A stretch of 64,000 nucleotides of DNA from a virus (IMGVR_UViG_3300032893_000010:32001-96000); one strand, 5' to 3'; positions 6,666 through 17,619 are shown, counted from the first letter of the stretch. Translations and numbers: made by a program. Notes: generated from the letters alone by a model not told the origin.

Positions 6666-6695
6666 TTGACACAGCCGACCCTTCTGTGTTACCAT
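6666..6695 (+). promoter_or_regulatory. SigA/HrdB-type promoter
   Basis: TTGACA-N18-TACCAT with extended -10 TG. Confidence 0.7.
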
Positions 6696-6727
6696 GATAG
6701 CCGGGCCGATATCGGCCCGGCTATCAT
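6694..6727. repeat. Perfect 34-bp palindrome (terminator and/or operator)
   Basis: ATGATAGCCGGGCCGAT|ATCGGCCCGGCTATCAT followed by a T run. Confidence 0.9.
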
Positions 6728-6741
6728 TTTTCGGAGGGTAC

Positions 6742-7356
6742 ATGATTATATGCATTACATCCACTGGTAAAGTACAGAAGCAGTTGATATACGATCTGAT
6801 AGAAGATGCTTTCATGCCTTATGCAGGCAAGGAGCTGACATTGGATGATGAAGAAAGAGATCTGGTCTGCCAGATTCAGGCAGCGGAGGTTCCCGTCTAT
6901 GACCTGGCCCGCGCCTTGTCTCCTGTGATGCCTCTAGAACGCGCTGAGAGCCACGCAGAGGCACTCCCGGACCCTTCCGAGGGTGATCCTGTGCTTGAGG
7001 AGTCCGAAGCCGTAGAATTGATCTCAGAGTGTCTGCTCGGGGAGGACTTCATCAGGGCCGAGTGGATAAGATATTTTGATAAGCTTTCGCTGGCAGAACT
7101 TAAAGGAATAGAGGAAGAGTTGCATAACGCCATAAAAGTAAGAGAAACATTCACTGAATACAGGAATGGCACCAGGTTCGCAGAAAAAGGTCCAGACTAT
7201 ACGGATAAGGGAAGTGTCCCTGAGGGAATAGACAGGACGATAAAATATTACAAGTCTCCTGCGGGCAAGATGAGAAAAGCCGGTCCCAGATCTAAGCCGA
7301 GGCCGAAAGAAGAAGTTGTTTACCTGACTCCTGAAGAAGAATCAGCACTGGAATAA
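6742..7356 (+). CDS. Hypothetical protein
   Basis: GGAGGG RBS before ATG 6742; first gene after promoter. Confidence 0.75.
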   Translation: MIICITSTGKVQKQLIYDLIEDAFMPYAGKELTLDDEERDLVCQIQAAEVPVYDLARALSPVMPLERAESHAEALPDPSEGDPVLEESEAVELISECLLGEDFIRAEWIRYFDKLSLAELKGIEEELHNAIKVRETFTEYRNGTRFAEKGPDYTDKGSVPEGIDRTIKYYKSPAGKMRKAGPRSKPRPKEEVVYLTPEEESALE

Positions 7357-7463
7357 TGGATACTTATATTCATCCTGAGAAATGCAGGTGCAGATGCGAT
7401 CCCTGTAGGGCTAGAATTCATTGCAGCAACAGGAAAAACGGATGCCTGGTTCCCGGCTGCTGA
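7356..7463 (+). CDS. Cys/His-rich microprotein, family copy A (35 aa)
   Basis: TAATG overlap with upstream gene; MDTYIHPEKCRCRCDPCRARIHCSNRKNGCLVPGC. Confidence 0.7.
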   Translation: MDTYIHPEKCRCRCDPCRARIHCSNRKNGCLVPGC

Positions 7464-7594
7464 TCACGGCAAAAATCGTATGCTACAGGGATCATTGTCA
7501 TTGCAATTGCGGTGCATGCTCACCTAAGACGGCATACCAGAACAGGGTACACTGCTGGAATCATAATTCTGATTGTCATAAAGGATGCTACTGA
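7442..7594 (+). CDS. Cys/His-rich microprotein, family copy B (50 aa)
   Basis: ...CHCNCGACSPKTAYQNRVHCWNHNSDCHKGCY; same Cys spacing as copy A. Confidence 0.65.
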   Translation: MPGSRLLITAKIVCYRDHCHCNCGACSPKTAYQNRVHCWNHNSDCHKGCY

Positions 7595-7807
7595 AAAATA
7601 AGAAGCACTGTAGCAGGATCAAGTCAACTGGACTACAGTGCTCCAAGAGGCAGGAGGGGGACCTCTTAACACAATGATATCACAAGGAGAATATAGTGAG
7701 CTGCATAGAGAACGAGATGGGTACGTGCATAAGATCTATCTTTCACCTGGGTAAATGCGAAGGGCAGGAATGCGTTCTGGAAGACTCATCGAATAGGGAG
7801 GAACTAG

Positions 7808-8254
7808 ATGAAGTACGGAGACTTGTCAAATAAGACTGCTCCGAGGGTTTACGTGGTATTCGAAGGACTGGTAGCTTCAGTACCGGACGATAATCTTCAG
7901 GAGTATTCTGACATGATCACGGCCAGGAAAGTTGACTGGTTCAAGGCTATCAAATGCTACCAGTTGAATGACATGGTTTGCGCTAAGTTAATCTGGCTTA
8001 GCTTTCATAGAGATGTTAATTTCACTGTGGTATCGTGGCTCCCTAAGGAAGCATCTTACGGTATCGATGTCTTCTTGCAGAAGAACGGCATACCTGCGGG
8101 GCTTATCATGTCAACACCCTATGAGATATCAATGGAACTTGTGAGAAGACCTGATGTAGTGGCGATATTAGATCCTGATCCATGGCATGTCCTTACTTTC
8201 GGGTCGAAGGCTAAGACTGCTTTTAACGCTGAAGACATAGGAGGAATATTTTGA
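7808..8254 (+). CDS. Hypothetical protein, degenerate HAD-like fold
   Basis: GDLSN..PRVYVVFEGLV N-terminus; resembles 31697-32200. Confidence 0.55.
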   Translation: MKYGDLSNKTAPRVYVVFEGLVASVPDDNLQEYSDMITARKVDWFKAIKCYQLNDMVCAKLIWLSFHRDVNFTVVSWLPKEASYGIDVFLQKNGIPAGLIMSTPYEISMELVRRPDVVAILDPDPWHVLTFGSKAKTAFNAEDIGGIF

Positions 8255-8481
8255 TCTACCTGAAGCCCTCATATTCCATATTGCAAATAGACATGTATCC
8301 AGGATGCTGTGATGAAGATTGCGATGAACAGCATGATCAGGAGGATGATGTCGCCAGCGGTTTCTGGTTAACGTGTTATCTGCACGGAGAGATTGAATGG
8401 TTCGATGTTGAATCAGATATTCCGTGGGAAGAACTAGAAGAATCTGCTGACGAGCACATGCTATCGTTTCTTTATTCTTAG
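8251..8481 (+). CDS. Hypothetical acidic protein
   Basis: ORF track; C..HG motif. Confidence 0.55.
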   Translation: MIYLKPSYSILQIDMYPGCCDEDCDEQHDQEDDVASGFWLTCYLHGEIEWFDVESDIPWEELEESADEHMLSFLYS

Positions 8482-8489
8482 GAGGAACT

Positions 8490-8684
8490 ATGAACTGGCT
8501 AGCTATCAATGACATAAATCATTTCGAGTTGACTACTGATGAACTAGGAGCTTTATATACTCATTGCCCAGATCACGGTGTATTCCGTGTAATAACAGGA
8601 GGAAGACCTATTAAGCTGAGAGAAATATTCAAGGCTATTGCTGAGCATACTGATGAAAGGCATAAGGATGGGCAGGGAATCTAA
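8490..8684 (+). CDS. Hypothetical protein
   Basis: AGGAGG RBS; CPDHG motif. Confidence 0.6.
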   Translation: MNWLAINDINHFELTTDELGALYTHCPDHGVFRVITGGRPIKLREIFKAIAEHTDERHKDGQGI

Positions 8685-9273
8685 GCTTCGTAATCCAAGG
8701 CCGGAATCAAGAACTGAGTATTCTAACGGGGACAGGAAACTGTATGACAGGGACAAGATGCCAGATGGGTTAGATTCTGACATCTGGTCCCTTACCCTGC
8801 TGTTCGAGCAGCTAGCGGAGAAAGATGGCTATTCGGTTCCTGCCAGGCCGATTGTCTACACTGAGCTTTACAACCGCGTCTCAAAGGACCCTGATCTATC
8901 CCAGTTACTACGCTCTGATGACGCTCAATATACGCGCACGCGCGTTACCACCGTATATGATGGTACGCCGTATCTCCTGGTGGAGAAGATGATACATCTG
9001 TACTGGGATATGAGTAATGGTTTTGATTACTACCATAGTATAAATAACTTCTGTAGTATAGAAGTTTTCAACTACCTTAAAGACTATGTAACAGAGACTA
9101 TGAAAAGAGAGAAACTTCATAACACAGGCAGGAGGGAGGAAATAAGGCTGGGCAGTATCAAACCATCTCACAGGACTGAAGAGGAAAGAATCCTGTACCA
9201 TCTCATGAACGACCCCAGGACAGAAGAAGAGTCGAGGAAGAAAATTGAATACTGGCAGAGAGATCATACATAG
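8668..9273 (+). CDS. Hypothetical protein
   Basis: Long ORF overlapping the helicase start. Confidence 0.65.
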   Translation: MGRESKLRNPRPESRTEYSNGDRKLYDRDKMPDGLDSDIWSLTLLFEQLAEKDGYSVPARPIVYTELYNRVSKDPDLSQLLRSDDAQYTRTRVTTVYDGTPYLLVEKMIHLYWDMSNGFDYYHSINNFCSIEVFNYLKDYVTETMKREKLHNTGRREEIRLGSIKPSHRTEEERILYHLMNDPRTEEESRKKIEYWQRDHT

Positions 9274-10486
9274 CATACTCAGCGGTGGTGACATCAGGGT
9301 AGTATTAGACGCGGGACTTAACAGATCCTGGCTGGAGGGAGAGAATACTGGTTCCAGCGTAATATTCTCAGGGATAGATAAGCAGGCTTACAAATGGCTG
9401 CTGAATCATTATGCAAGACATAGGAACATACCAGCTCTGGGAACATTCAGGCAGCATTTCCCTGAGGAATCTTATAAATTCTCTGGTACTGTGATACCTG
9501 TAGGGGAACTTACAGAGCTGGCAGAGGAAAAGGTAGCATCTTTCCTTGTAGCGGATGTGATCGGCAGGGCAATAGATCTTCATGATAAAGGAAACATGAG
9601 AGAAGCTGCTTCCCTGCTGGGAATAGAAAGAAACATAAAGTACAGGAAGACAAGAGCTGACGACCTCGGCTCAGCTTCTTTTGACATAGAGGCTTTTCTC
9701 AGTAAAGAACTTGAGATGGGAATACCTCTGGGCATACCTGACATAGATGAGGAGTTCTATGGTTTCCAGCCTGGGATGCTGATAACTTTACTGGGAAGGC
9801 AGAAATCAGGAAAATCCTGGACTACTATCAACTCAGCCTTGCATGCCTGGGCTCAGGGGTATACGGTACTTGTATTCTCGGTTGAGATGGATACTACTAT
9901 GTTTCACCAGAGAGTGATGTGCCTGGGGGCTAAGGTTTCTCCTTCCCGGATGAGAAGAGGAAGACTATCCGCAGAGGAGAAGGAAAGAGTCAGGATATTT
10001 CATTCAGATCTTGTTCAGGAAGAGGGAACTTTCCTTATCTCTAAAAGAAAAACTGGTATCACTGTCGATGAGATAAAAGAGGAGGTTGCTCTTTATAATC
10101 CTAACATCGTGTATATTGACGGGTTTTCTTTCATGAGGGACACTGTGTCGGGAAGGACTACTTCTGACTGGCAGGCTAATGAGAACGTTGCTTATGCCCT
10201 GAAGGAATTCGCCATGGAAGAAGAGATAGTAGTATTCGTTAATACCCAGGTCCAGGAAAAGCAGTACAGTTCCAAGCACGGCATCGAGGCTAAGACTATT
10301 GCTTCCGGCACTGGTCTTCTCAAGGCTTCTGATCTTGTCCTGGGCCAGGATAAAGACGGAAACGACATGACTATAAGCACGGTGTATTCTAGATATGAAT
10401 GGCCGGAGACTGTTGTCGTTGATGTTGACTGGGACACCATGAATATGGTAACTGTCAAAGCTAAACTAGAAGAGGAAGGTATATGA
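9245..10486 (+). CDS. dnaB: DnaB-like replicative helicase
   Basis: Walker A GRQKSGKS, VLVFSVEM, IVYIDG, LKEFAMEEEIVV, SDLVLG. Confidence 0.92.
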   Translation: MNTGREIIHSILSGGDIRVVLDAGLNRSWLEGENTGSSVIFSGIDKQAYKWLLNHYARHRNIPALGTFRQHFPEESYKFSGTVIPVGELTELAEEKVASFLVADVIGRAIDLHDKGNMREAASLLGIERNIKYRKTRADDLGSASFDIEAFLSKELEMGIPLGIPDIDEEFYGFQPGMLITLLGRQKSGKSWTTINSALHAWAQGYTVLVFSVEMDTTMFHQRVMCLGAKVSPSRMRRGRLSAEEKERVRIFHSDLVQEEGTFLISKRKTGITVDEIKEEVALYNPNIVYIDGFSFMRDTVSGRTTSDWQANENVAYALKEFAMEEEIVVFVNTQVQEKQYSSKHGIEAKTIASGTGLLKASDLVLGQDKDGNDMTISTVYSRYEWPETVVVDVDWDTMNMVTVKAKLEEEGI

Positions 10487-10585
10487 TGTTCAGGTTCGTG
10501 AAGAAGATAATAGCAATGGAGATAGCTGAGTTAATCTGCATGACCCAGCAGTATACTCAGGCGATGAGCGAAGAGGATAAGAAAG

Positions 10586-11551
10586 ATGTCAAGTTCGGGT
10601 TCGCGCTACCAGACAGGAGCATCATCGATTGAGTCACTGCTCGGAGAACTGGGAATAAAATATGACATCTCAGGTGACGAAGCTTATTCCAGTTGCCCTT
10701 TTCATTATCCTGACAGGCATGCTAGCTGGTATGTTAACATCAGATCCGGTTTGCATCATTGTTTCAGTTGTGGCGCTAAGGGTAATCTCGCTCATCTTGT
10801 TTCCTTCGTCAAGAATATCTCGTATCCTGAAGCGGTAATATACGTTAACGAGATAATAGGATGGGCAAGGGCAGATAGGTGGAGGGAGGATTATGAGAGC
10901 AGTAGTTATGCACCGCCTGCATACAGGATATCTGAGACGGATCTGGCAATGTTTGACTCCCCGCCTGTGGATTACATGGAACAAAGAGATCTCAGAGAAG
11001 AATACGTAAAGCTGTTTGGCGTTAAATGGAACACGGAAAATAAATCGTGGATACTTCCTATAAGAGACCCGTATACTTTCGATCTATGGGGATGGCAGGA
11101 GAAATTGGCTGATGGACGAGGATTCAGTAATAATCCAAGAGGTATTAAAAAATCCAAGACGTTGTTTGGCATTGACGTTGCTACAGATGGCGGCACCATT
11201 ATCCTGGTCGAGTCGCCACTTGACGCAGTGCGTGTGTCTTCTTTCGGAAGAGGAACTGGATTGGCTTGCTCGGGCCTACAGGTCAGCGATATCCAGCTCT
11301 CCTTTGTATTCGAACGCTCAGAACGAGTTGTACTGGCGCTTGATAACGATACTCCAGGAATACGAGATACAGCTAGAATATGCTCAGAGTATAAAGGACG
11401 CCCTCTGTGGATATACGACTATGGAATGAGCAAAGCTAAAGATCCTGGAGAGCAGACAGATGAGGAAATAATATGGAGCTTGGATAATATGAGATCAGGA
11501 TTGAGATGTCTAGCAGAACATGAAAAGAAACTTAAAAATCTACAGAGATAA
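10586..11551 (+). CDS. dnaG: DNA primase
   Basis: CPFH...HCFSCG zinc finger; Toprim VESPLDA, LALDND..G, KDPGE. Confidence 0.92.
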   Translation: MSSSGSRYQTGASSIESLLGELGIKYDISGDEAYSSCPFHYPDRHASWYVNIRSGLHHCFSCGAKGNLAHLVSFVKNISYPEAVIYVNEIIGWARADRWREDYESSSYAPPAYRISETDLAMFDSPPVDYMEQRDLREEYVKLFGVKWNTENKSWILPIRDPYTFDLWGWQEKLADGRGFSNNPRGIKKSKTLFGIDVATDGGTIILVESPLDAVRVSSFGRGTGLACSGLQVSDIQLSFVFERSERVVLALDNDTPGIRDTARICSEYKGRPLWIYDYGMSKAKDPGEQTDEEIIWSLDNMRSGLRCLAEHEKKLKNLQR

Positions 11552-11701
11552 CAATGACTGGTGGGTAGGATGGTACAGAGGGCCGAATCATCACTATGTT
11601 ATATTGATACCCACGATAGTAATAAGATGGGAGAAGACCTTATCTAATGATAAGGTCTTGGCTCAAAGAAATGCGTTGGTGAAAAAATGAGGAATAATTA
11701 A

Positions 11702-12409
11702 TTGCGCTACGTGGGAGGAAAGAGCAAGTTAGCTAAGAGAATTGCATCAGATATCCTAGCTCGCACTGACAAAAGAGATGTACTGATAGAGCCTTTCGTC
11801 GGCGGCGGGGCTGTCCTGGCAGAACTAGCACCAGCTTTCGATTGCGTATATGCTTCTGATATTCATGAGGATCTTATGCTCATGTGGAATAAGTTCTGGC
11901 ACTATAACTGGGAACCTGATAACTACTGCTCAGAACAGGAGTACCAGAGACTGAGATATGAGAAGCCGTCAGCCTTGAGAAGGCTGGTAGGATTCGGGCA
12001 GTCTTTCGGAGGTAAATGGTGGGGAGGTTATGCCAGGGGAAAGAAACCCAACGGTGAAGAAAGAAATTACCTTGACGAAACCATAAGAAATATAAAGAAT
12101 ATAATCAGCAAGCTCCCTGAGAATTCTCACTTTACTATCTCCTCATACAAAGACTGGAACCCGGTAGCAGGAGACGTTATCTACTGTGATCCTCCTTACG
12201 CCAGTACTCAAGGATATGGAGGCACTGATAGTTTCGATTCTCAAGAGTTCTGGAAAGTCATGGACGAGTGGAAGCAATTAGGTGCTGATGTATTCGTATC
12301 AGAATATAATGCTCCTGACAGCTGGAAAGAGATAGCATCTTATCCTCATAGGATGGAACTGTCTCTGATACAGGATAGGAGACAGACAACAGAAAGATTG
12401 TGGCATTAG
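11702..12409 (+). CDS. Dam-like N6-adenine DNA methyltransferase
   Basis: YVGGKSKLA, EPFVGGGAV (motif I), YCDPPY (motif IV), VFVSEY. Confidence 0.9.
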   Translation: MRYVGGKSKLAKRIASDILARTDKRDVLIEPFVGGGAVLAELAPAFDCVYASDIHEDLMLMWNKFWHYNWEPDNYCSEQEYQRLRYEKPSALRRLVGFGQSFGGKWWGGYARGKKPNGEERNYLDETIRNIKNIISKLPENSHFTISSYKDWNPVAGDVIYCDPPYASTQGYGGTDSFDSQEFWKVMDEWKQLGADVFVSEYNAPDSWKEIASYPHRMELSLIQDRRQTTERLWH

Positions 12410-15093
12410 TGTTTAACGGTAAGCTGCATCCATATCAGGAGGAAGTAGTAAAGAGATTCCTGGAACGCAAGAGCTTATTACTAGCCTATGGTTGCGGGAC
12501 AGGAAAGGCCCAGAGTATCAGTGAGCCTGTCCTAACTCCGAATGGATGGAAAGAAATAGGAAAACTTCAAGTTGGAGACTATGTAATAGGGAAGGGCGGT
12601 AAACCGACTGAGGTAACGGGGGTCTTCCCGCAGACGGATAGATCAATCTATAAAATAACTATGAATGACGGGTCATATACTTTTGCTACGAAAGATCACC
12701 TGTGGTCCGTACGGCGTAGAGCTAAAGACAACTGGCATGTGAAGACCACCCAGGAATTGCTAGACTCAGGTTTGAGCATTCAAAGAAAAAGTCATGATGT
12801 CAGGACTAACGGACGAGCTTCTGACGCTCCGGGTTGTAAATATCAGATACCAGTGGTAGATGCTGTAGCATTCGGGTATAGCAAGCTTCCAGTTGACCCG
12901 TATTTGCTGGGAGCTATTTTGGGAGACGGGTGCGTCACAGCATCTAATCCTACTATTACTTTTTCTACGGCTGACTCTGAAATGATAAGTAATATGGAAG
13001 TTCTGCTTCCTGATGGAGTTTCTATCAAGAAAGGTGACGGATACAATTACAGGTTAGTCTCTACAAGAGGAAAGCCTAATCTACTGCTTGATGCTGTAAG
13101 AAGTTTAGGAATTTACGGTACAGATTCAAGCACAAAGTTCATTCCAGAAAACTACTTAATGGCTTGCACACCTGACAGGATTGCTCTGTTGCAAGGTTTA
13201 ATGGATACTGACGGTACTGTAGACAAAAGACAACCTTCATCAATATCTTTTTGTACGGTAAGTGAGGCTCTTAAAGACGGGGTAGTCGAGTTAGTTCAGT
13301 CTTTGGGTGGTACAGCCAGGGTTACTTCTAAAATTCCTGTCCTTAAATATAAAGGCGAGTATAAAAAAGGAAAGCTGGCATATATGGTGAGCATACGACT
13401 TCCTAGCGCAGTTCAGCCGTTTAGGTTAACTAGGAAAGAAGCTCCGTATACGCCAGTAAATAACCTAACTCGTTACATAAAAACCATAGAATATAGCCAC
13501 GAAGAAGATTCTGTTTGCATATCAGTAGCAGCAGAAGACAACCTATACGTAACCAGGAACTATATTGTCACGCACAACACAGTAATGTCTATTGCCATTG
13601 CAGAGGAACTTCTAGCATCTGGTGAAGTAGATCAGGTGCTAGTTCTCTGTCCTGCTTCACTCAAATATCAGTGGCGCGATAAGATAAAACAGTTCACGGA
13701 CAGTTCAGTTATGGTAGTAGACGGTCCTAAGCGCATAAGGACAGGACAGTACGCATCTCAACGGGGAGAAATACCAGCTTGTGAGTATCTGATAGGCTCA
13801 TACGACGGTGTTATCTATGATCACGAGGACATGTCAGCAGTGAATCCAGGCATGGTCATAGCTGATGAAGTGTCAGCTATCAAGTCTTTCAAGGCTCAGG
13901 GATCCAAGAGAGTAAAGAAACTGTTCGGTAAGACACCTTACCGTCTTGGCCTTACAGCTACTCCTATAGAGAACAAGCCAGAAGAATTATATTCCATCAT
14001 GCAATGGATAGACCCCACAGTATTAGGAAGGTACGATTTATTTGAGCGAGCATACATCACGAGAAATTCAAAAGGATGGGTCGTGGAGTATAAAAACCTT
14101 GACGTTCTACGGGAGCGGATGGGAGATGCACTTAGCAGGAAAACAAGACATGATCCTGAGGTACGACCATACCTTCCAGACGTTGATGAAGCTACCTGGG
14201 AAGTTCACATTGATTCTATTCCGTTGGGGAAAGCGTATGAGAAGATATGCCAGGATATGCTGTCACATATTGAAGAGAATGCATATAAATATGACAGTGA
14301 CATAAACCTGATGAACATGGTTCCTGGTTTCGATGATTCAACACCAGATGGTGAGCTTATGTCCATGCACATGTGCGCTGAGATGCTGCTTAATCATCCT
14401 GAACTTGTCATATGGTCAGCTAATATGTACGAGGGCGATTCTCCTGAAGGCTCTGCCTATGCTAAGCACCTGAAAGATTCAGGTCTCCTGTACAGCATTC
14501 ATAACAGTCCTAAGATGGATCTGCTACTGGAAGAGCTGGATCTGCTACTGGCCGATCCTGATAGTAAGGTGATAATAGTCTCCAGGTATAAGTACATGCT
14601 TGACATTATCAGCATGCATCTCAAGGGAGAGTATAAGCACGTGAAATTCACGGGAGACATGACAGCGACACAGAAGAACATAGCAGTTGGCTTGTTCAGC
14701 CAGCCTGAGTACAGGATTTTCCTGACATCACATGCAGGCGGCTACGGTCTTGACTTGTACATGGCTGACTACCTGATTAACTATGACATTCCATGGTCGG
14801 CGGGAACTAAAGACCAGATTAACTCAAGACATGTAAGAGCATCGTCAGGCTTCGATAAGGTGTATGTACGTAATCTGGTAACTAAAGATACTGTGGAGGA
14901 GAGGAAGTACAGGGTGCTGGAAAGAAAAGGACAGATAATATCATCTGTGATGGATGGTGCTGATATAACGACAGTCGATGTCGGATCGGATTATCTCAGG
15001 ACGCACCTGGAGAAAGTTCTAGGAAAACCCTTGACAGACCGGGCCGCCCGTGCTAAACTGGGTAGCAGTCAATTTACTGAGGAGGCGTCATGA
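12400..15093 (+). CDS. SNF2-family helicase containing an intein
   Basis: LHPYQ, GTGK/T Walker A split by intein, VLCPASLKYQW, IADEVSAIKS, LTATPIENKPEELYS, GGYGLDL. Confidence 0.9.
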   Translation: MALVFNGKLHPYQEEVVKRFLERKSLLLAYGCGTGKAQSISEPVLTPNGWKEIGKLQVGDYVIGKGGKPTEVTGVFPQTDRSIYKITMNDGSYTFATKDHLWSVRRRAKDNWHVKTTQELLDSGLSIQRKSHDVRTNGRASDAPGCKYQIPVVDAVAFGYSKLPVDPYLLGAILGDGCVTASNPTITFSTADSEMISNMEVLLPDGVSIKKGDGYNYRLVSTRGKPNLLLDAVRSLGIYGTDSSTKFIPENYLMACTPDRIALLQGLMDTDGTVDKRQPSSISFCTVSEALKDGVVELVQSLGGTARVTSKIPVLKYKGEYKKGKLAYMVSIRLPSAVQPFRLTRKEAPYTPVNNLTRYIKTIEYSHEEDSVCISVAAEDNLYVTRNYIVTHNTVMSIAIAEELLASGEVDQVLVLCPASLKYQWRDKIKQFTDSSVMVVDGPKRIRTGQYASQRGEIPACEYLIGSYDGVIYDHEDMSAVNPGMVIADEVSAIKSFKAQGSKRVKKLFGKTPYRLGLTATPIENKPEELYSIMQWIDPTVLGRYDLFERAYITRNSKGWVVEYKNLDVLRERMGDALSRKTRHDPEVRPYLPDVDEATWEVHIDSIPLGKAYEKICQDMLSHIEENAYKYDSDINLMNMVPGFDDSTPDGELMSMHMCAEMLLNHPELVIWSANMYEGDSPEGSAYAKHLKDSGLLYSIHNSPKMDLLLEELDLLLADPDSKVIIVSRYKYMLDIISMHLKGEYKHVKFTGDMTATQKNIAVGLFSQPEYRIFLTSHAGGYGLDLYMADYLINYDIPWSAGTKDQINSRHVRASSGFDKVYVRNLVTKDTVEERKYRVLERKGQIISSVMDGADITTVDVGSDYLRTHLEKVLGKPLTDRAARAKLGSSQFTEEAS
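12508..13578 (+). mobile_element. Class 3 intein (357 aa) with LAGLIDADG endonuclease
   Basis: Starts Ala (AQSISEPVLTPNGW); block B TKDHLW, block F VCISV, block G VTHN/T (W-C-T triad); LLGAILGDG and LLQGLMDTDG motifs. Confidence 0.92.
15031..15059 (+). promoter_or_regulatory. SigA/HrdB-type promoter
   Basis: TTGACA-N17-TAAACT with extended -10 TG. Confidence 0.75.
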
Positions 15094-15224
15094 AAACCAC
15101 GGTCCCGGCGAAGTGCCCCAAGTGCAAGAGCACTCACATTTATGAGGTAGCAAAAGATGAAAATACCTATACTGTAGTGTGGGCTTGCTATGACTGCGGT
15201 CATATATGGAGGATAAGCACATGA
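15090..15224 (+). CDS. Zinc-ribbon microprotein (44 aa)
   Basis: GAGGAGG RBS; CPKC...KDE..TVVWACYDCGHIW. Confidence 0.75.
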   Translation: MKTTVPAKCPKCKSTHIYEVAKDENTYTVVWACYDCGHIWRIST

Positions 15225-15370
15225 TGCCGGTAATGAGATGTCCTAGGTGCAACGAGTGGTGCAGTACAGCCAATCAGTTCCTTTTCAGGACAAGAGAAGA
15301 CGAGAAGAATGACAGGCCGGGCGTCATGTACAATGACTGCAAGTATTGCGGGCATCAATGGCCAGCATAG
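15221..15370 (+). CDS. Zinc-ribbon microprotein (49 aa)
   Basis: GGAGG RBS, ATGA overlap; CPRC...RTREDE...MYNDCKYCGHQW. Confidence 0.75.
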   Translation: MMPVMRCPRCNEWCSTANQFLFRTREDEKNDRPGVMYNDCKYCGHQWPA

Positions 15371-15786
15371 AAGAACATGAGAGATGGGCTTTATCCTATC
15401 TTCTCGTGACTCATGACGAGAATCATATCAAGGAGAAGAGATCTGAGCTTAGGAGTAATCTTCATGACCACATCCTGGAGCACGGAGAAGAAGACGAAGA
15501 CGGCAATCTTATAGTCTATTTCGATGAGCCTAAGACTGTGGATGGGGAGACCTGGTTCAAGGGCCTGATGCTCCAGCGCAGGGTTTCAGAGTATGTGGAT
15601 GAGGATAAGGTCTGGGAGCTGGTGAGGAAACACGATCTCGGGGATATGTGCCTGAAAACTGTTGAGGTTCTGGACCTGGACATGTTCTATGCTGCCAACC
15701 AGCAAGGCTTGATCTCAGATGAAGAACTGGATTCTGTATTGACACAGGAGAAATCGTGGGCGCTCGTGAAGATAAAGGCTCTGTAG
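15358..15786 (+). CDS. Hypothetical protein
   Basis: GEEDEDGNL..., QRRVS..DED, G.ISDEELD..L....SWAL; typical of replication-region genes. Confidence 0.75.
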   Translation: MASIEEHERWALSYLLVTHDENHIKEKRSELRSNLHDHILEHGEEDEDGNLIVYFDEPKTVDGETWFKGLMLQRRVSEYVDEDKVWELVRKHDLGDMCLKTVEVLDLDMFYAANQQGLISDEELDSVLTQEKSWALVKIKAL

Positions 15787-15902
15787 CGCATGAGCTGAAG
15801 ATGTGCTCCTGTGATTGCAAGGAATGTGACGCAGGCAAGGCGATAAATAACAAGTGGTATCACTGCCTTAAGCATGAGAACGGATGTCATCGGATATGCT
15901 AG
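15756..15902 (+). CDS. Cys/His-rich microprotein, family copy C
   Basis: AGGAG RBS before GTG 15756 (alt ATG 15801); CSCDCKECDAGKAINNKWYHCLKHENGCHRIC. Confidence 0.7.
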   Translation: MGAREDKGSVAHELKMCSCDCKECDAGKAINNKWYHCLKHENGCHRIC

Positions 15903-16033
15903 GGTGGGGAAGCAAGAAGCCTGAGCACGAAAATTATGACATAAGCCTTTGCCGGTGCTTGTGCAGGAGGTGCGATTCAGTAGTGGCTTTTGATCATTGC
16001 CAGAACACGCGAAAAGGATGTCATATGGGATGA
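15896..16033 (+). CDS. Cys/His-rich microprotein, family copy D (45 aa)
   Basis: Overlaps stop of copy C; CRCLCRRCDSVVAFDHCQNTRKGCHMG. Confidence 0.7.
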   Translation: MLGWGSKKPEHENYDISLCRCLCRRCDSVVAFDHCQNTRKGCHMG

Positions 16034-16140
16034 ATTTCCTGAAGAATAAGAAATGTGATTGCCTTTGCTTTGAGTGCTGTAGTTTCATTCATTGCGGAAG
16101 ACATAAGAAAGGTTGTCATAAGGATTGCGACCATGACTGA
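16030..16140 (+). CDS. Cys/His-rich microprotein, family copy E (36 aa)
   Basis: ATGA overlap with copy D; MNFLKNKKCDCLCFECCSFIHCGRHKKGCHKDCDHD; overlaps ATG 16133. Confidence 0.7.
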   Translation: MNFLKNKKCDCLCFECCSFIHCGRHKKGCHKDCDHD

Positions 16141-16552
16141 GTTCTATCCAGGCAGCAGTAAGAGAAGAAGGAACTATGAAGACCAGGCTGGGAAAGCTGA
16201 AGACGAGAATTCTCTTGAGGATTTTGATCTGGGCAAATCAAAGACGTATCTCCTGAACAACCAAAGAGTAGAGTTGTATCCTTTAGGTTCCCTGGCTGCC
16301 GCTCTTAACAGGGCTCCGGTTACTATAAGGAAACTGGAGAAAGAAGGAATAATCCCTAAGGCCACGATGATACTTCCCTCTCATGACGAAAGAGGAACCA
16401 GAAGGCTTTACACCAGGGAGCAGATTGCGGGACTCAGGAAGGCTGCCGAGGAAGAGGGAGTGTTGTGTCCTAGTCCTAATGGTAAATGGAGAGCTATTGA
16501 AGAAACTAATTTCAGGGAGAAAGCTCTCTCAGTATTCAAGGAGAACAAGTGA
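16133..16552 (+). CDS. MerR-like HTH DNA-binding protein
   Basis: YPLGSLAAALNRAPVTIRKLEKEGIIP...RRLYTREQI; true start probably 16133, not 16055. Confidence 0.8.
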   Translation: MTEFYPGSSKRRRNYEDQAGKAEDENSLEDFDLGKSKTYLLNNQRVELYPLGSLAAALNRAPVTIRKLEKEGIIPKATMILPSHDERGTRRLYTREQIAGLRKAAEEEGVLCPSPNGKWRAIEETNFREKALSVFKENK

Positions 16553-16908: not shown

Positions 16909-17619
16909 ATGGCGATAGAGAGAAAAAGAGCGCAGACACCAGATACGTCAGGATTAAGCGAGTTCGCACCTAGAGAAAGAGTAACTAAAGAAGTGCAAGA
17001 ATCACATGATTTCATCAAGCCTGGATGGGCAGTGGGCAAGAATCGCTATTCTAATTCAGGCGAGAAAGCAGACTATTTCAGCATCAAGAAGTTCGAGGAA
17101 GAGATAATCATCAAGTTCTTGGATGATGTGTCCTTCGCTCCGGTTTTCCAGCATTGGGTATTGATGGAGGGAGGGAAGAGAAGACCTTTCACTTGCATAG
17201 TAAAGGAATGTCCTCTTTGCGAGAGAGGAGACACGCCTAAGAGCTGTGACTATATCAATCTCGTAGAGCTGTCAGCTAAGTCACCGGATGACGAGAAGTA
17301 TCCAGAGCCTGTTCTCAAGCTGTGGTCTGCCTCACCTTCACCTGCTGCCGCTATCAAGCAGAGGGCAGAAAACAAGAGAAGCTCCCCTATCAACAGGAAG
17401 GGATTGTACTTTGCGGCATTCAAGGTTAACGGCAAGAATGACATCCCGGAGTATCATCTTGATCCTGTGAGGGAAGACGAGCTTGATGACTATGCCGTGC
17501 AGCCTCTGACCGATGAGCAACTAGCCAAGTTCAACTCTGAGAAGTATGATAAATCCGTAGTTAAGGTGCACACTAAGTCAGAGCTGGAAGAGATTGCAGA
17601 AAAGTATCTAGAGGATTAA
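16909..17619 (+). CDS. ssDNA-binding protein (gp32-like)
   Basis: IIKFLDD...FQHWV...FTC...CPLCE Zn site; upstream of polymerase. Confidence 0.7.
   Translation: MAIERKRAQTPDTSGLSEFAPRERVTKEVQESHDFIKPGWAVGKNRYSNSGEKADYFSIKKFEEEIIIKFLDDVSFAPVFQHWVLMEGGKRRPFTCIVKECPLCERGDTPKSCDYINLVELSAKSPDDEKYPEPVLKLWSASPSPAAAIKQRAENKRSSPINRKGLYFAAFKVNGKNDIPEYHLDPVREDELDDYAVQPLTDEQLAKFNSEKYDKSVVKVHTKSELEEIAEKYLED

What the first reader, a model, noticed from the sequence alone, without database searches (positions are those of the whole stretch)
7356..16140. Five-copy family of metallothionein-like microproteins below the ORF cutoff
Seen: five ORFs of 33-50 aa in two clusters (7356-7463, 7442-7594; 15756-15902, 15896-16033, 16030-16140) share C-x-C-x-C-x2-C-x(4-11)-H-C-x5-(G/D)-C, usually followed by H and a last C. 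The residues between the ligands are unrelated, and the genes are chained by start/stop overlaps. Both clusters sit a short way downstream of strong promoters (6666, 15031); the second feeds into a MerR-like gene. Known: proteins this small and Cys/His-dense are typical of bacterial metallothioneins (SmtA, MymT), but I do not recognise this spacing. Inference: an undescribed, diversifying multi-metal mini-domain, acting as a metal sink or as a scaffold for host/defence inhibitors.
Basis: partly seen in the sequence, partly recalled or inferred. Interest (0 to 1): 0.78.

Follow-up and report, generated by a model that had tools for sequence, protein, structure and literature searches.

The report
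Phage Cys/His-rich microprotein gene family
Five tiny overlapping genes in this uncultured 116-kb phage are real members of an undescribed family of about 45-residue, cysteine/histidine-rich, probably metal-binding proteins that so far turns up almost only in viral contigs, often in chained arrays; what they do is unknown.

Summary
C-x-C-x-C-x2-C occurs five times in the six frames of the window. All five lie in small + strand ORFs and continue into H-C...C(H)..C; shuffles give 0.12 and 0. The window is part of a 116,130-bp IMG/VR phage with nine clear copies at four loci.

The fuller signature is C-x5-C-x-C-x-C-x2-C-x(4-13)-H-C-x2-H-x2-G-C-H-x2-C (Cys8His3, median 46 aa). I found members in 26 further IMG/VR loci, often as chained arrays. 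None appeared in GenBank phages or in about 800 sampled actinobacterial and proteobacterial genomes.

Close orthologs elsewhere show purifying selection, also at non-ligand codons (pN/pS 0.26). No Pfam, PHROG or PDB family matches. That includes bacterial metallothionein, CXC and UBZ models. AlphaFold models were poor.

A syntenic relative (DnaB 51% identical) lacks both window clusters. So do 28 more loci holding the MerR-like neighbour. The genes are therefore accessory, with high turnover, and sit in replication-arm operons.

Best reading, about 45%: metal-stabilised mini-binders acting early on host or phage targets. A metallothionein-like sink is unlikely. This scan noted the same family before in a 166-kb phage (e1-5669293).

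The parts
7356..7463 (+). Microprotein B1, 35 aa. Reduced ligand set: it lacks the N-terminal C0 and the second and third His; the last Cys is shifted.
   Evidence: The ATG overlaps the TAA of the upstream 220-aa gene (TAATG). HMM E=2e-13.
7442..7594 (+). Microprotein B2, 50 aa (57 aa if the TTG at 7421 is used). It carries the full Cys8His3 ligand set.
   Evidence: AGGAAA lies 6 nt before the ATG. The start is 22 nt inside B1. Best HMM score in the genome (E=3e-21).
15756..15902 (+). Microprotein C1, 48 aa. It lacks only C0.
   Evidence: GTG start behind AGGAGA-aatc. It overlaps the end of the upstream 146-aa gene by 31 nt.
15884..16033 (+). Microprotein C2, 49 aa (45 aa from the ATG at 15896). 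Reduced form: no C0, no second His, no last Cys.
   Evidence: The start lies inside C1. The stop TGA overlaps the ATG at 16030 (ATGA).
16018..16140 (+). Microprotein C3, 40 aa (36 aa from the ATG at 16030). It lacks only C0.
   Evidence: The next gene's ATG at 16133 lies 8 nt inside it.
6694..7356 (+). Upstream 220-aa gene of unknown function; its stop is coupled to B1.
   Evidence: No Pfam or PHROG hit.
15346..15786 (+). Upstream 146-aa gene of unknown function; the left border of the variable slot that holds C1-C3.
   Evidence: Its homolog in relative G001 is 42% identical.
16133..16552 (+). Downstream 139-aa gene with a weak MerR-type HTH; the right border of the slot.
   Evidence: MerR_1 E=0.01, below the cut-off. 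Homologs in 29 viral loci have no family member nearby.
6666..6695 (+). Sigma-70-like promoter match, 690 nt upstream of B1.
   Evidence: TTGACA-18-TACCAT, 10/12 with TG. A consensus match only.
15031..15059 (+). Sigma-70-like promoter match, 725 nt upstream of C1, inside the 3' end of the SNF2 gene.
   Evidence: TTGACA-17-TAAACT, 10/12 with TG. A consensus match only.

Best explanation
The five ORFs are real, translated genes of a virus-enriched family of stand-alone microproteins (median 46 aa). The conserved signature is C0-x5-C1-x-C2-x-C3-x2-C4-x(4-13)-H-C5-x2-H-x2-G-C6-H-x2-C7.

Shown:
- The family exists, is multi-copy, and its members are chained by start/stop overlaps.
- Close orthologs are under purifying selection.
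- The genes are accessory and turn over fast between related phages.
- They sit in or at the end of DNA-replication transcription arms.

Inferred from established zinc-site chemistry:
- The eight Cys and three His hold two metal ions (reduced forms, such as two of the window's copies) to three metal ions (full form). The metal is most likely Zn(II).
- Those metals supply the whole fold of a protein too small to have a hydrophobic core.

Inferred, about 45%:
- The metal core is a rigid scaffold, and the variable residues between ligands form a binding surface.
- Each paralog then acts as a small stoichiometric binder or inhibitor of a different host target (or possibly phage target), expressed with early/middle genes. 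Host takeover or counter-defence are the most plausible uses.

My odds for the sub-claims: real coding genes 0.9, metal binding 0.75, binder/inhibitor role 0.45.
For: - Motif statistics: 5 observed against 0.12 (short motif) and 0 (full motif) in shuffles.
- Nine paralogs in the genome, all on the coding strand.
- The DNA pattern for HCxxHxxGCHxxC gave 47 viral loci where about 7 chance hits per 120 Gb were expected by my own estimate. Many loci hold 2-4 tandem hits.
- An HMM found 66 distinct members in G000 plus 26 viral loci, with arrays of 6-7 in L017, L031 and L050.
- A profile search of 1.84 billion proteins returned four small proteins with the same spacing.
- Ortholog pairs give pN/pS of 0.09-0.32. 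Restricted to non-Cys/His codons the pooled value is 0.26, p=4e-7. The spacer residues therefore matter.
- Over longer distances the family diverges faster than its neighbours. D2 orthologs are 46-49% identical. The adjacent HNH-like gene is 57-66% identical and the large terminase 75-85%.
- The syntenic relative G001 (DnaB 51%, SNF2 50%) lacks both window clusters. It carries an unrelated 88-aa acidic ORF in the exact slot of C1-C3.
- Arrays lie on the strand of, and downstream of, replication genes in two unrelated lineages: this window and L015/L042 behind a DNA polymerase.
- Loss of C0 goes with loss of the second His: 5 of the 6 members lacking that His also lack C0. This suggests a separable third metal site.
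- Net charge ranges from -4 to +10 across members, which argues against one shared nucleic-acid target.
Against: - There is no direct evidence of translation, metal binding or any target.
- The window's own five copies have no close ortholog, so the selection tests come from other lineages.
- Both AlphaFold2 models were poor (pLDDT 50.7 and 59.5) and had no fold match, so the scaffold idea has no structural support.
- SD-like motifs are only weakly enriched (16/58 against 17% in controls, p=0.03).
- Most outside members were ascertained with a pattern that forces the C-terminal ligands, which inflates their apparent conservation.
- This phage's nine copies are all net positive (+1 to +8), which would also fit nucleic-acid binding.
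- In several phages the arrays lie within 1 kb of the endolysin, so a lysis-related role is not excluded.
Confidence: 0.45

Rival explanations
1. Small zinc-finger regulators that bind nucleic acid, or the replication or transcription machinery of the phage itself. They would be analogous to the small phage zinc-finger activators Ogr/Delta or the Mu Com translational activator (named from my own knowledge, not tested here).
For: - The window copies sit inside the replication module, between DnaB, primase, SNF2 and an SSB-like gene, and next to an HTH gene.
- All nine copies in this phage are net basic, +1 to +8.
Against: - Family-wide charge runs from -4 to +10 with a median of +1.
- Nine diverged paralogs per genome, and presence/absence differences between syntenic relatives, are unusual for core regulators.
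- No match to any nucleic-acid-binding zinc-finger model at E<=10.
Confidence: 0.2
2. Metallothionein-like metal buffer or metallochaperone. The proteins would soak up or deliver Zn or Cu during infection, for example to zinc-dependent phage enzymes such as the endolysin.
For: - Cys plus His make up about a quarter of the residues, with C-x-C runs typical of thiolate clusters.
- Arrays lie within 1 kb of endolysin genes in two lineages.
Against: - PF02069 finds nothing at E<=10, and no member matches it.
- Non-ligand codons are under purifying selection, and fixed Gly/Asn/His positions imply a defined fold.
- In the lineage where the strand can be read, the arrays belong to the replication arm that converges on the endolysin, not to the lysis operon.
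- Nine different paralogs are not needed for bulk binding.
Confidence: 0.12
3. The ORFs are not translated. They would be chance frames, or the real gene would be the 133-aa antisense ORF at 15687-16088.
For: - All five are below usual gene-calling lengths.
- An antisense ORF of 133 aa overlaps cluster C.
- SD motifs are weak for some copies.
Against: - The motif count is far above shuffles.
- The ligand pattern is conserved in this frame across nine paralogs and more than 60 homologs.
- pN/pS is well below 1 in orthologs.
- The antisense ORFs have no Pfam match and lie against the uniform + strand polarity and GC/AT skew of the region.
Confidence: 0.03
4. Exported, disulfide-rich peptides (toxin-, bacteriocin- or RiPP-precursor-like) rather than cytoplasmic metal proteins.
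For: - The Cys framework is conserved while the loops are hypervariable, as in knottin- or conotoxin-type peptides.
- A few outside members have hydrophobic N-terminal extensions under the automated start choice.
Against: - The window copies and most members have no signal peptide or leader.
- No maturase or exporter gene was seen next to the arrays that were annotated.
- The three conserved His next to Cys point to metal ligation.
Confidence: 0.05

Closest known systems
The 'Cys8His3' phage microprotein arrays noted earlier in this scan (e1-5669293; 166-kb soil phage, IMGVR_UViG_3300036780_000209, here L009/G004)
   Same: Same signature, size and start/stop chaining. I reached that record independently with the DNA pattern, and my HMM finds nine copies in it.
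   Different: A different phage: GC 0.70 in L009 against 0.46 here, and no DnaB match. Here the copies are scattered over four loci. Four of the five window copies lack the N-terminal Cys, and two are a reduced form with about eight ligands.
Bacterial metallothioneins of the SmtA/BmtA type (Pfam Metallothio_Pro, PF02069)
   Same: Small, Cys/His-rich, with C-x-C runs. A metal-thiolate cluster would supply the fold.
   Different: No sequence match even at E<=10. The family is virus-enriched, multi-copy and chained. The spacer residues are under selection. There is no metal-homeostasis gene context.
Zn3Cys9 CXC / Tesmin-TSO1 domains (Pfam TCR, PF03638)
   Same: A run of closely spaced C-x-C motifs and about nine Cys, which in CXC and pre-SET domains hold a three-zinc cluster (my knowledge of those families). 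This is a possible model for the full 11-ligand form.
   Different: No HMM match at E<=10. CXC domains are parts of large eukaryotic chromatin proteins and lack the H-C...H...G-C-H half.
Small stand-alone zinc-scaffold binders such as Bacillus anti-TRAP, or the phage zinc-finger activators Ogr/Delta and Com
   Same: What it may work like: a protein of about 50 residues, held together by zinc, that acts by binding one macromolecular partner (from my own knowledge, not tested here).
   Different: Those use C4 knuckles (CxxC pairs) and are single-copy. No Pfam zinc-ribbon or zinc-finger model matches these ORFs, whereas the neighbouring 44-aa ORF at 15090 does match zinc-ribbon models.
UBZ4 / C2HC fingers (PF18439, PF13913), suggested for a 'Cys8His3' array in a Candidatus Buchananbacteria genome (e1-689087)
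   Same: The same Cys8His3 label, and a claimed presence in CPR bacteria and phages. Two Saccharibacteria-MAG contigs carry the C-terminal motif.
   Different: Neither Pfam model matches these ORFs. Only the seed genome among 301 sampled Patescibacteria scored. The MAG hits share only the C-terminal half. Identity with that family is not established.

Membership tests
Bacterial metallothionein (SmtA/BmtA, PF02069) | Match to the family profile | tested here: not met
   No Pfam hit at E<=10 for the five ORFs or at E<=1 for 62 members. A six-frame PF02069 scan of the whole phage gave 0 matches at E<=10.
Bacterial metallothionein (SmtA/BmtA, PF02069) | Small protein with a high Cys/His share and C-x-C motifs | tested here: met
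   35-50 aa, 6-8 Cys and 2-5 His per copy.
Bacterial metallothionein (SmtA/BmtA, PF02069) | Multi-metal thiolate cluster with measured stoichiometry and a role in metal homeostasis | not testable with these tools
   Needs ICP-MS or metal titration of purified protein. The gene context is phage replication, not metal regulation.
MymT-type copper metallothionein | Sequence relationship to MymT | not tested
CXC / Tesmin Zn3Cys9 domain (PF03638) | Match to the family profile | tested here: not met
   Six-frame scan of the phage gave 0 matches at E<=10.
UBZ4 / C2HC zinc fingers (PF18439, PF13913) | Match to the family profile over the microprotein genes | tested here: not met
   PF18439 gave only noise hits elsewhere (E=0.6 at genome position 52.2 kb). 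PF13913 gave none.
Classical zinc ribbon (two CxxC knuckles) | Match to zinc-ribbon profiles or CxxC...CxxC spacing | tested here: not met
   None for the five ORFs. The neighbouring ORF at 15090-15224 matches many zinc-ribbon models.
Phage Cys8His3 microprotein family (unnamed; this scan, e1-5669293) | Signature C-x-C-x-C-x2-C ... H-C-x2-H-x2-G-C-H-x2-C in a stand-alone ORF of about 35-65 aa that ends within a few residues of the last Cys | tested here: met
   All five window ORFs score E=2e-13 to 3e-21 against the seed profile, though that profile (A1) was built from these same five ORFs. They align with 57 outside members. Two of the five carry a reduced ligand set.
Phage Cys8His3 microprotein family (unnamed; this scan, e1-5669293) | Tandem genes chained by start/stop overlaps on viral contigs | tested here: met
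   Window clusters. Arrays of 4-7 copies in L009, L017, L031, L042 and L050.
Phage Cys8His3 microprotein family (unnamed; this scan, e1-5669293) | Restricted to viruses | tested here: inconclusive
   6 of 6 virus records tested have it. 0 of 401 Actinomycetota, 0 of 401 Pseudomonadota and 1 of 301 Patescibacteria (the seed MAG) have it. The 120 listed bacterial pattern hits are almost all off-frame chance. These are samples only, and MAG contigs may be phage.

The most novel reading that the evidence does not exclude
The family is a new metal-cluster fold. The full form would be a three-metal Cys8His3 core, and a reduced two-metal form has arisen in this phage. Phages would use it as a fast-evolving library of early-expressed mini-binders, each paralog neutralising a different host protein or defence system. 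It would be a natural 'zinc knottin' effector repertoire that gene callers and protein databases have largely missed.
Probability: 0.25. Interest if true: 0.8.

Novelty: new variant of a known kind. Interest (0 to 1): 0.62.

Why it matters
Genes below 60 codons are routinely dropped from phage annotation. Here a whole family, present in dozens of soil and wetland phage contigs and in up to nine copies per genome, is invisible to Pfam, PHROGs, PDB and GenBank phage records.

If the proteins are metal-scaffolded binders, they would add a new, very compact protein scaffold. They would also add a new class of candidate host-takeover or counter-defence effectors.

The variable slot seen here gives a concrete place to look for such effectors. 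It holds three microprotein genes in one phage and an acidic 88-aa ORF in its syntenic relative.

If they turn out to be simple metal buffers, that would be the first phage-borne metallothionein-type system.

Tried and rejected
Searches that found nothing:
- Pfam and PHROGs on the five ORFs and on 62 members gave nothing relevant.
- A PDB sequence profile gave nothing.
- The ESM Atlas gave no score above 0.78 and no named cluster.
- tblastn of three members against 50,697 GenBank phage records gave only chance Microviridae hits.
- megablast of 10 kb of the window found nothing.
- Four literature searches found no description.
- A word-indexed homolog search was insensitive for this family: one near-length hit. 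It found no fused longer forms, which is weak evidence.

Structure:
- Two AlphaFold2 runs with family alignments gave pLDDT 50.7 and 59.5. Foldseek against PDB returned nothing. I draw no fold conclusion.

Scans and trees:
Nearly all are off-frame His/Cys/Arg-rich chance frames.
- A maximum-likelihood tree of 23 members was unresolved (1 of 20 branches supported, saturated branches). I make no claim about where clusters B and C came from.
The DnaB query found no close relative.

Rejected readings:
- I rejected a lysis-cassette link as the main reading. In the lineage where strands differ, the arrays belong to the DNA-polymerase arm that converges on the endolysin.
- A recurrent ORF in L011, L014, L022, L047 and L054 that carries only the C-terminal motif was dropped as a doubtful member (4 non-synonymous and 0 synonymous differences).

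Tool problems:
I stopped that step and made the pairwise comparisons by locus reference instead.
Full report
WHAT IS THERE

The window is bases 32001-96000 of a 116,130-bp IMG/VR virus record that CheckV rates complete. GC content is about 46%, and the gene polarity and GC/AT skew are almost uniformly + strand.

The five ORFs are at the coordinates given:
- B1: 7356-7463
- B2: 7442-7594
- C1: 15756-15902
- C2: 15884 or 15896 to 16033
- C3: 16018 or 16030 to 16140

C.C.C..C occurs five times in all six frames of the window. Every occurrence is in one of these ORFs and runs on into H-C-x(4-7)-C. In 200 dinucleotide-preserving shuffles the short motif averaged 0.12 and the full motif never occurred. 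An alignment shows four Cys, His-Cys and a further Cys invariant, with the following His and the last Cys each present in four of five.

- TAATG junction with the upstream 220-aa gene.
- A 22-nt overlap of B2 with B1.
- A GTG start behind AGGAGA, inside the upstream 146-aa gene.
- ATGA between C2 and C3.
- An 8-nt overlap with the next gene.

There is no DNA-level repeat beyond the 12-nt (N/K)-G-C-H block and no Rfam match.

MORE COPIES IN THE SAME PHAGE

A profile of the five ORFs, and a regex scan of the laid genome, find four more clear copies outside the window:
- genome 18920-19078 and 19075-19200, an ATGA-coupled pair beside tail-fibre-like genes;
- genome 109915-110028 and 110421-110561.

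There is also a degenerate candidate at 103221-103331. The family therefore has nine to ten copies at four loci, not five.

THE FAMILY OUTSIDE THIS PHAGE

A profile of the nine copies, run against 1.84 billion representative proteins, returned only four hits at E<=1e-3. All four are 43-67 aa with the same spacing.

I then scanned IMG/VR for the back-translated C-terminal half, H-C-x2-H-x2-G-C-H-x2-C. By my own estimate about 7 chance hits per 120 Gb would be expected. The scan gave 47 loci, several with two to four hits about 130 nt apart.

An HMM search of all stop-to-stop frames of those loci gave 66 distinct members in G000 plus 26 loci. These include chained arrays of six or seven in L017, L031 and L050 and four to six in L009, L033 and L042.

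The consensus of 62 aligned members is C0-x5-C1-x-C2-x-C3-x2-C4-x(4-13)-H-C5-x2-H-x2-G-C6-H-x2-C7. Median length is 46 aa, with a median of 8 Cys and 4 His.

A caveat applies. The scan pattern forces the C-terminal ligands in the seeds, so their conservation is partly by ascertainment. Members found only by HMM in the same loci are free of this bias.

Nearly all are off-frame His/Cys/Arg-rich frames, not small ORFs with an N-terminal Cys cluster.

The profile search found:
- the family in all six virus records tested;
- 0 of 401 Actinomycetota;
- 0 of 401 Pseudomonadota;
- only the seed MAG among 301 Patescibacteria.

GenBank phages gave nothing by tblastn.

CODING EVIDENCE

Three informative ortholog pairs from other lineages give pN/pS of 0.32, 0.09 and 0.19. 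With Cys and His codons removed, the pooled ratio is 0.26, and the deficit of non-synonymous changes has p=4e-7. The residues between the ligands are therefore constrained in the short term.

Over longer distances the family drifts faster than its neighbours. The positional orthologs of copy D2 in L031 and L013 are 49% and 46% identical, and 11 of the identities are ligands. The adjacent HNH-like gene is 57% and 66% identical, and the large terminase 85% and 75%.

SD-like cores are only weakly enriched before the automatically chosen starts (28% against 17%, p=0.03). Several G000 copies nevertheless have good sites (AGGAGA, GGAGGA, GGGAGA), and the rest are overlap-coupled.

KNOWN FAMILIES

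- No Pfam or PHROG model matches the five ORFs or any of 62 members in a meaningful way.
- A PDB sequence profile search is empty.
- Six-frame scans of the phage with bacterial metallothionein (PF02069), CXC/Tesmin (PF03638), UBZ (PF18439) and C2HC (PF13913) give no hit on these genes, even at E<=10.
- The ESM Atlas offers nothing above 0.78.
- Literature searches found no description.
- Two AlphaFold2 runs with family alignments were poor (pLDDT 50.7 and 59.5), and Foldseek found no PDB match. The fold remains unknown.

COMPARATIVE CONTEXT

The window clusters lie inside the replication module:
- DnaB-like helicase, 9245-10486
- primase, 10586-11551
- Dam-type methyltransferase, 11702-12409
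- SNF2-type helicase, 12400-15093
- SSB-like gene, 16909-17619

A complete 115,610-bp relative, G001, is syntenic across this whole region: p578 48%, DnaB 51%, primase 49%, SNF2 50%, p146 42%, MerR-like 46% and SSB-like 43%. G001 has no family member there. In the exact slot of C1-C3, between the p146 and MerR-like homologs, it carries an unrelated, strongly acidic 88-aa ORF.

Twenty-nine viral loci that hold a homolog of the MerR-like gene have no member within 4 kb. That gene is itself only a sub-threshold MerR_1 match. So clusters B and C are specific to this lineage, and the link to the MerR-like gene is incidental.

By contrast, the locus at genome 110 kb is old. The order is D1, a 94-aa gene, D2, an HNH-like gene, an endolysin-like gene, and later the terminase. 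It is shared with L031 and L013 and, for D1, with G001.

In a second, unrelated lineage (L015, L017, L033, L042; GC about 0.53) the arrays lie within about 0.7 kb of an endolysin. However, they are on the opposite strand, co-oriented with and downstream of a DNA polymerase gene. In two lineages, then, the arrays belong to the replication (early/middle) arm.

LIGAND BOOKKEEPING

Thirty-five of 62 members carry all eleven ligand positions. Of the six that lack the second His, five also lack C0. This fits a separable third site, although the sample is small and not phylogenetically independent.

In the window:
- B2 is complete.
- C1 and C3 lack only C0.
- B1 and C2 are reduced to about eight ligands, enough for two tetrahedral sites.

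INTERPRETATION

Established: this is a real, selected, virus-enriched, accessory microprotein family with a fixed Cys/His framework.

Inferred from general metalloprotein chemistry: the framework binds two to three metal ions, most likely zinc, which hold the fold together.

The role is not shown. I favour a metal-scaffolded binder or inhibitor repertoire expressed with early/middle genes (about 45%), for these reasons:
- The spacers are constrained within orthologs yet differ sharply between paralogs.
- Copy number and location change quickly between related phages.
- The copies occupy variable slots.
- Charge varies widely across the family.

Rivals:
- Nucleic-acid-binding or machinery-binding regulators, about 20%. 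This phage's copies are all basic and sit among replication genes.
- A metallothionein-like buffer or chaperone, about 12%.
- Exported disulfide-rich peptides, about 5%.
- Non-genes, about 3%.

RELATION TO EARLIER NOTES OF THIS SCAN

The same family was reported before from a 166-kb soil phage (e1-5669293). I reached that record independently (L009/G004, nine copies) and agree with its description.

Another note (e1-689087) describes a 'Cys8His3' array in a CPR bacterium and likens its back half to UBZ4 fingers. Here the UBZ and C2HC models do not match, and Patescibacteria sampling was essentially negative. I cannot say whether that is the same family.

LIMITS

I stopped that step and used locus references instead.
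- The tree of members was unresolved.
- The host of this phage is unknown.

Noticed in passing
window 12400-15093: The SNF2-type helicase gene (897 aa) carries an insertion of about 357 residues, roughly residues 37-393. Its sequence looks like an intein with a homing-endonuclease domain. The homolog in the syntenic relative G001 is a contiguous 521-aa protein without the insertion.
   Followed up: partly
window 15090-15224 and 15206-15370: Two further overlapping microprotein genes (44 and 54 aa) are ordinary zinc ribbons (sub-threshold Zn_ribbon hits), unrelated to the family. tblastn found no counterpart in G001.
   Followed up: partly
L177 8356-8622 (- strand; relative G001): A strongly acidic 88-aa ORF occupies exactly the slot that holds C1-C3 in this phage, between the p146 and MerR-like homologs. 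It has no Pfam hit. Its composition recalls DNA-mimic anti-restriction proteins, but this was not tested.
   Followed up: partly
window 11702-12409: The Dam-type N6-adenine methyltransferase gene (PF02086) has no counterpart in the syntenic region of G001. It is another accessory difference in the same module.
   Followed up: partly
outside the window: G000 103221-103331: A possible degenerate tenth copy (36 aa, with C-x-C-x-C-x2-C...H-C...C only) lies behind a strong GGGAGG site, in the Ro60/Y-RNA region described by earlier notes. It did not reach the HMM threshold.
   Followed up: partly
outside the window: G000 110574-111724 (L008 1627-2774): A 158-aa His-rich HNH-like gene is conserved at 57-66% identity in L031 and L013. 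A PHROG HNH hit exists for the L031 copy only. It is followed by a 223-aa protein distantly related to the L031 endolysin-like gene (23% identity, E=6e-8).
   Followed up: partly
window 15687-16088 (- strand): A 133-aa antisense ORF spans cluster C. A gene caller might call it in place of the three microprotein genes. It has no Pfam hit and lies against the strand polarity of the region.
   Followed up: partly
L011 1226-1390; also L014, L022, L047, L054: A recurrent 54-aa frame carries the C-terminal H-C-x2-H-x2-G-C-H-x2-C motif but has no clear start and an atypical front half. Two copies differ by 4 non-synonymous and 0 synonymous changes. It may be an off-frame coincidence inside another conserved gene.
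   Followed up: no
L058 6498-6773 and L128/L207 (Saccharibacteria-type MAG contigs): Single ORFs of about 70-90 aa carry the C-terminal motif with an aberrant front half, on short contigs binned to CPR bacteria. They could be divergent members or phage contigs in MAG bins.
   Followed up: partly
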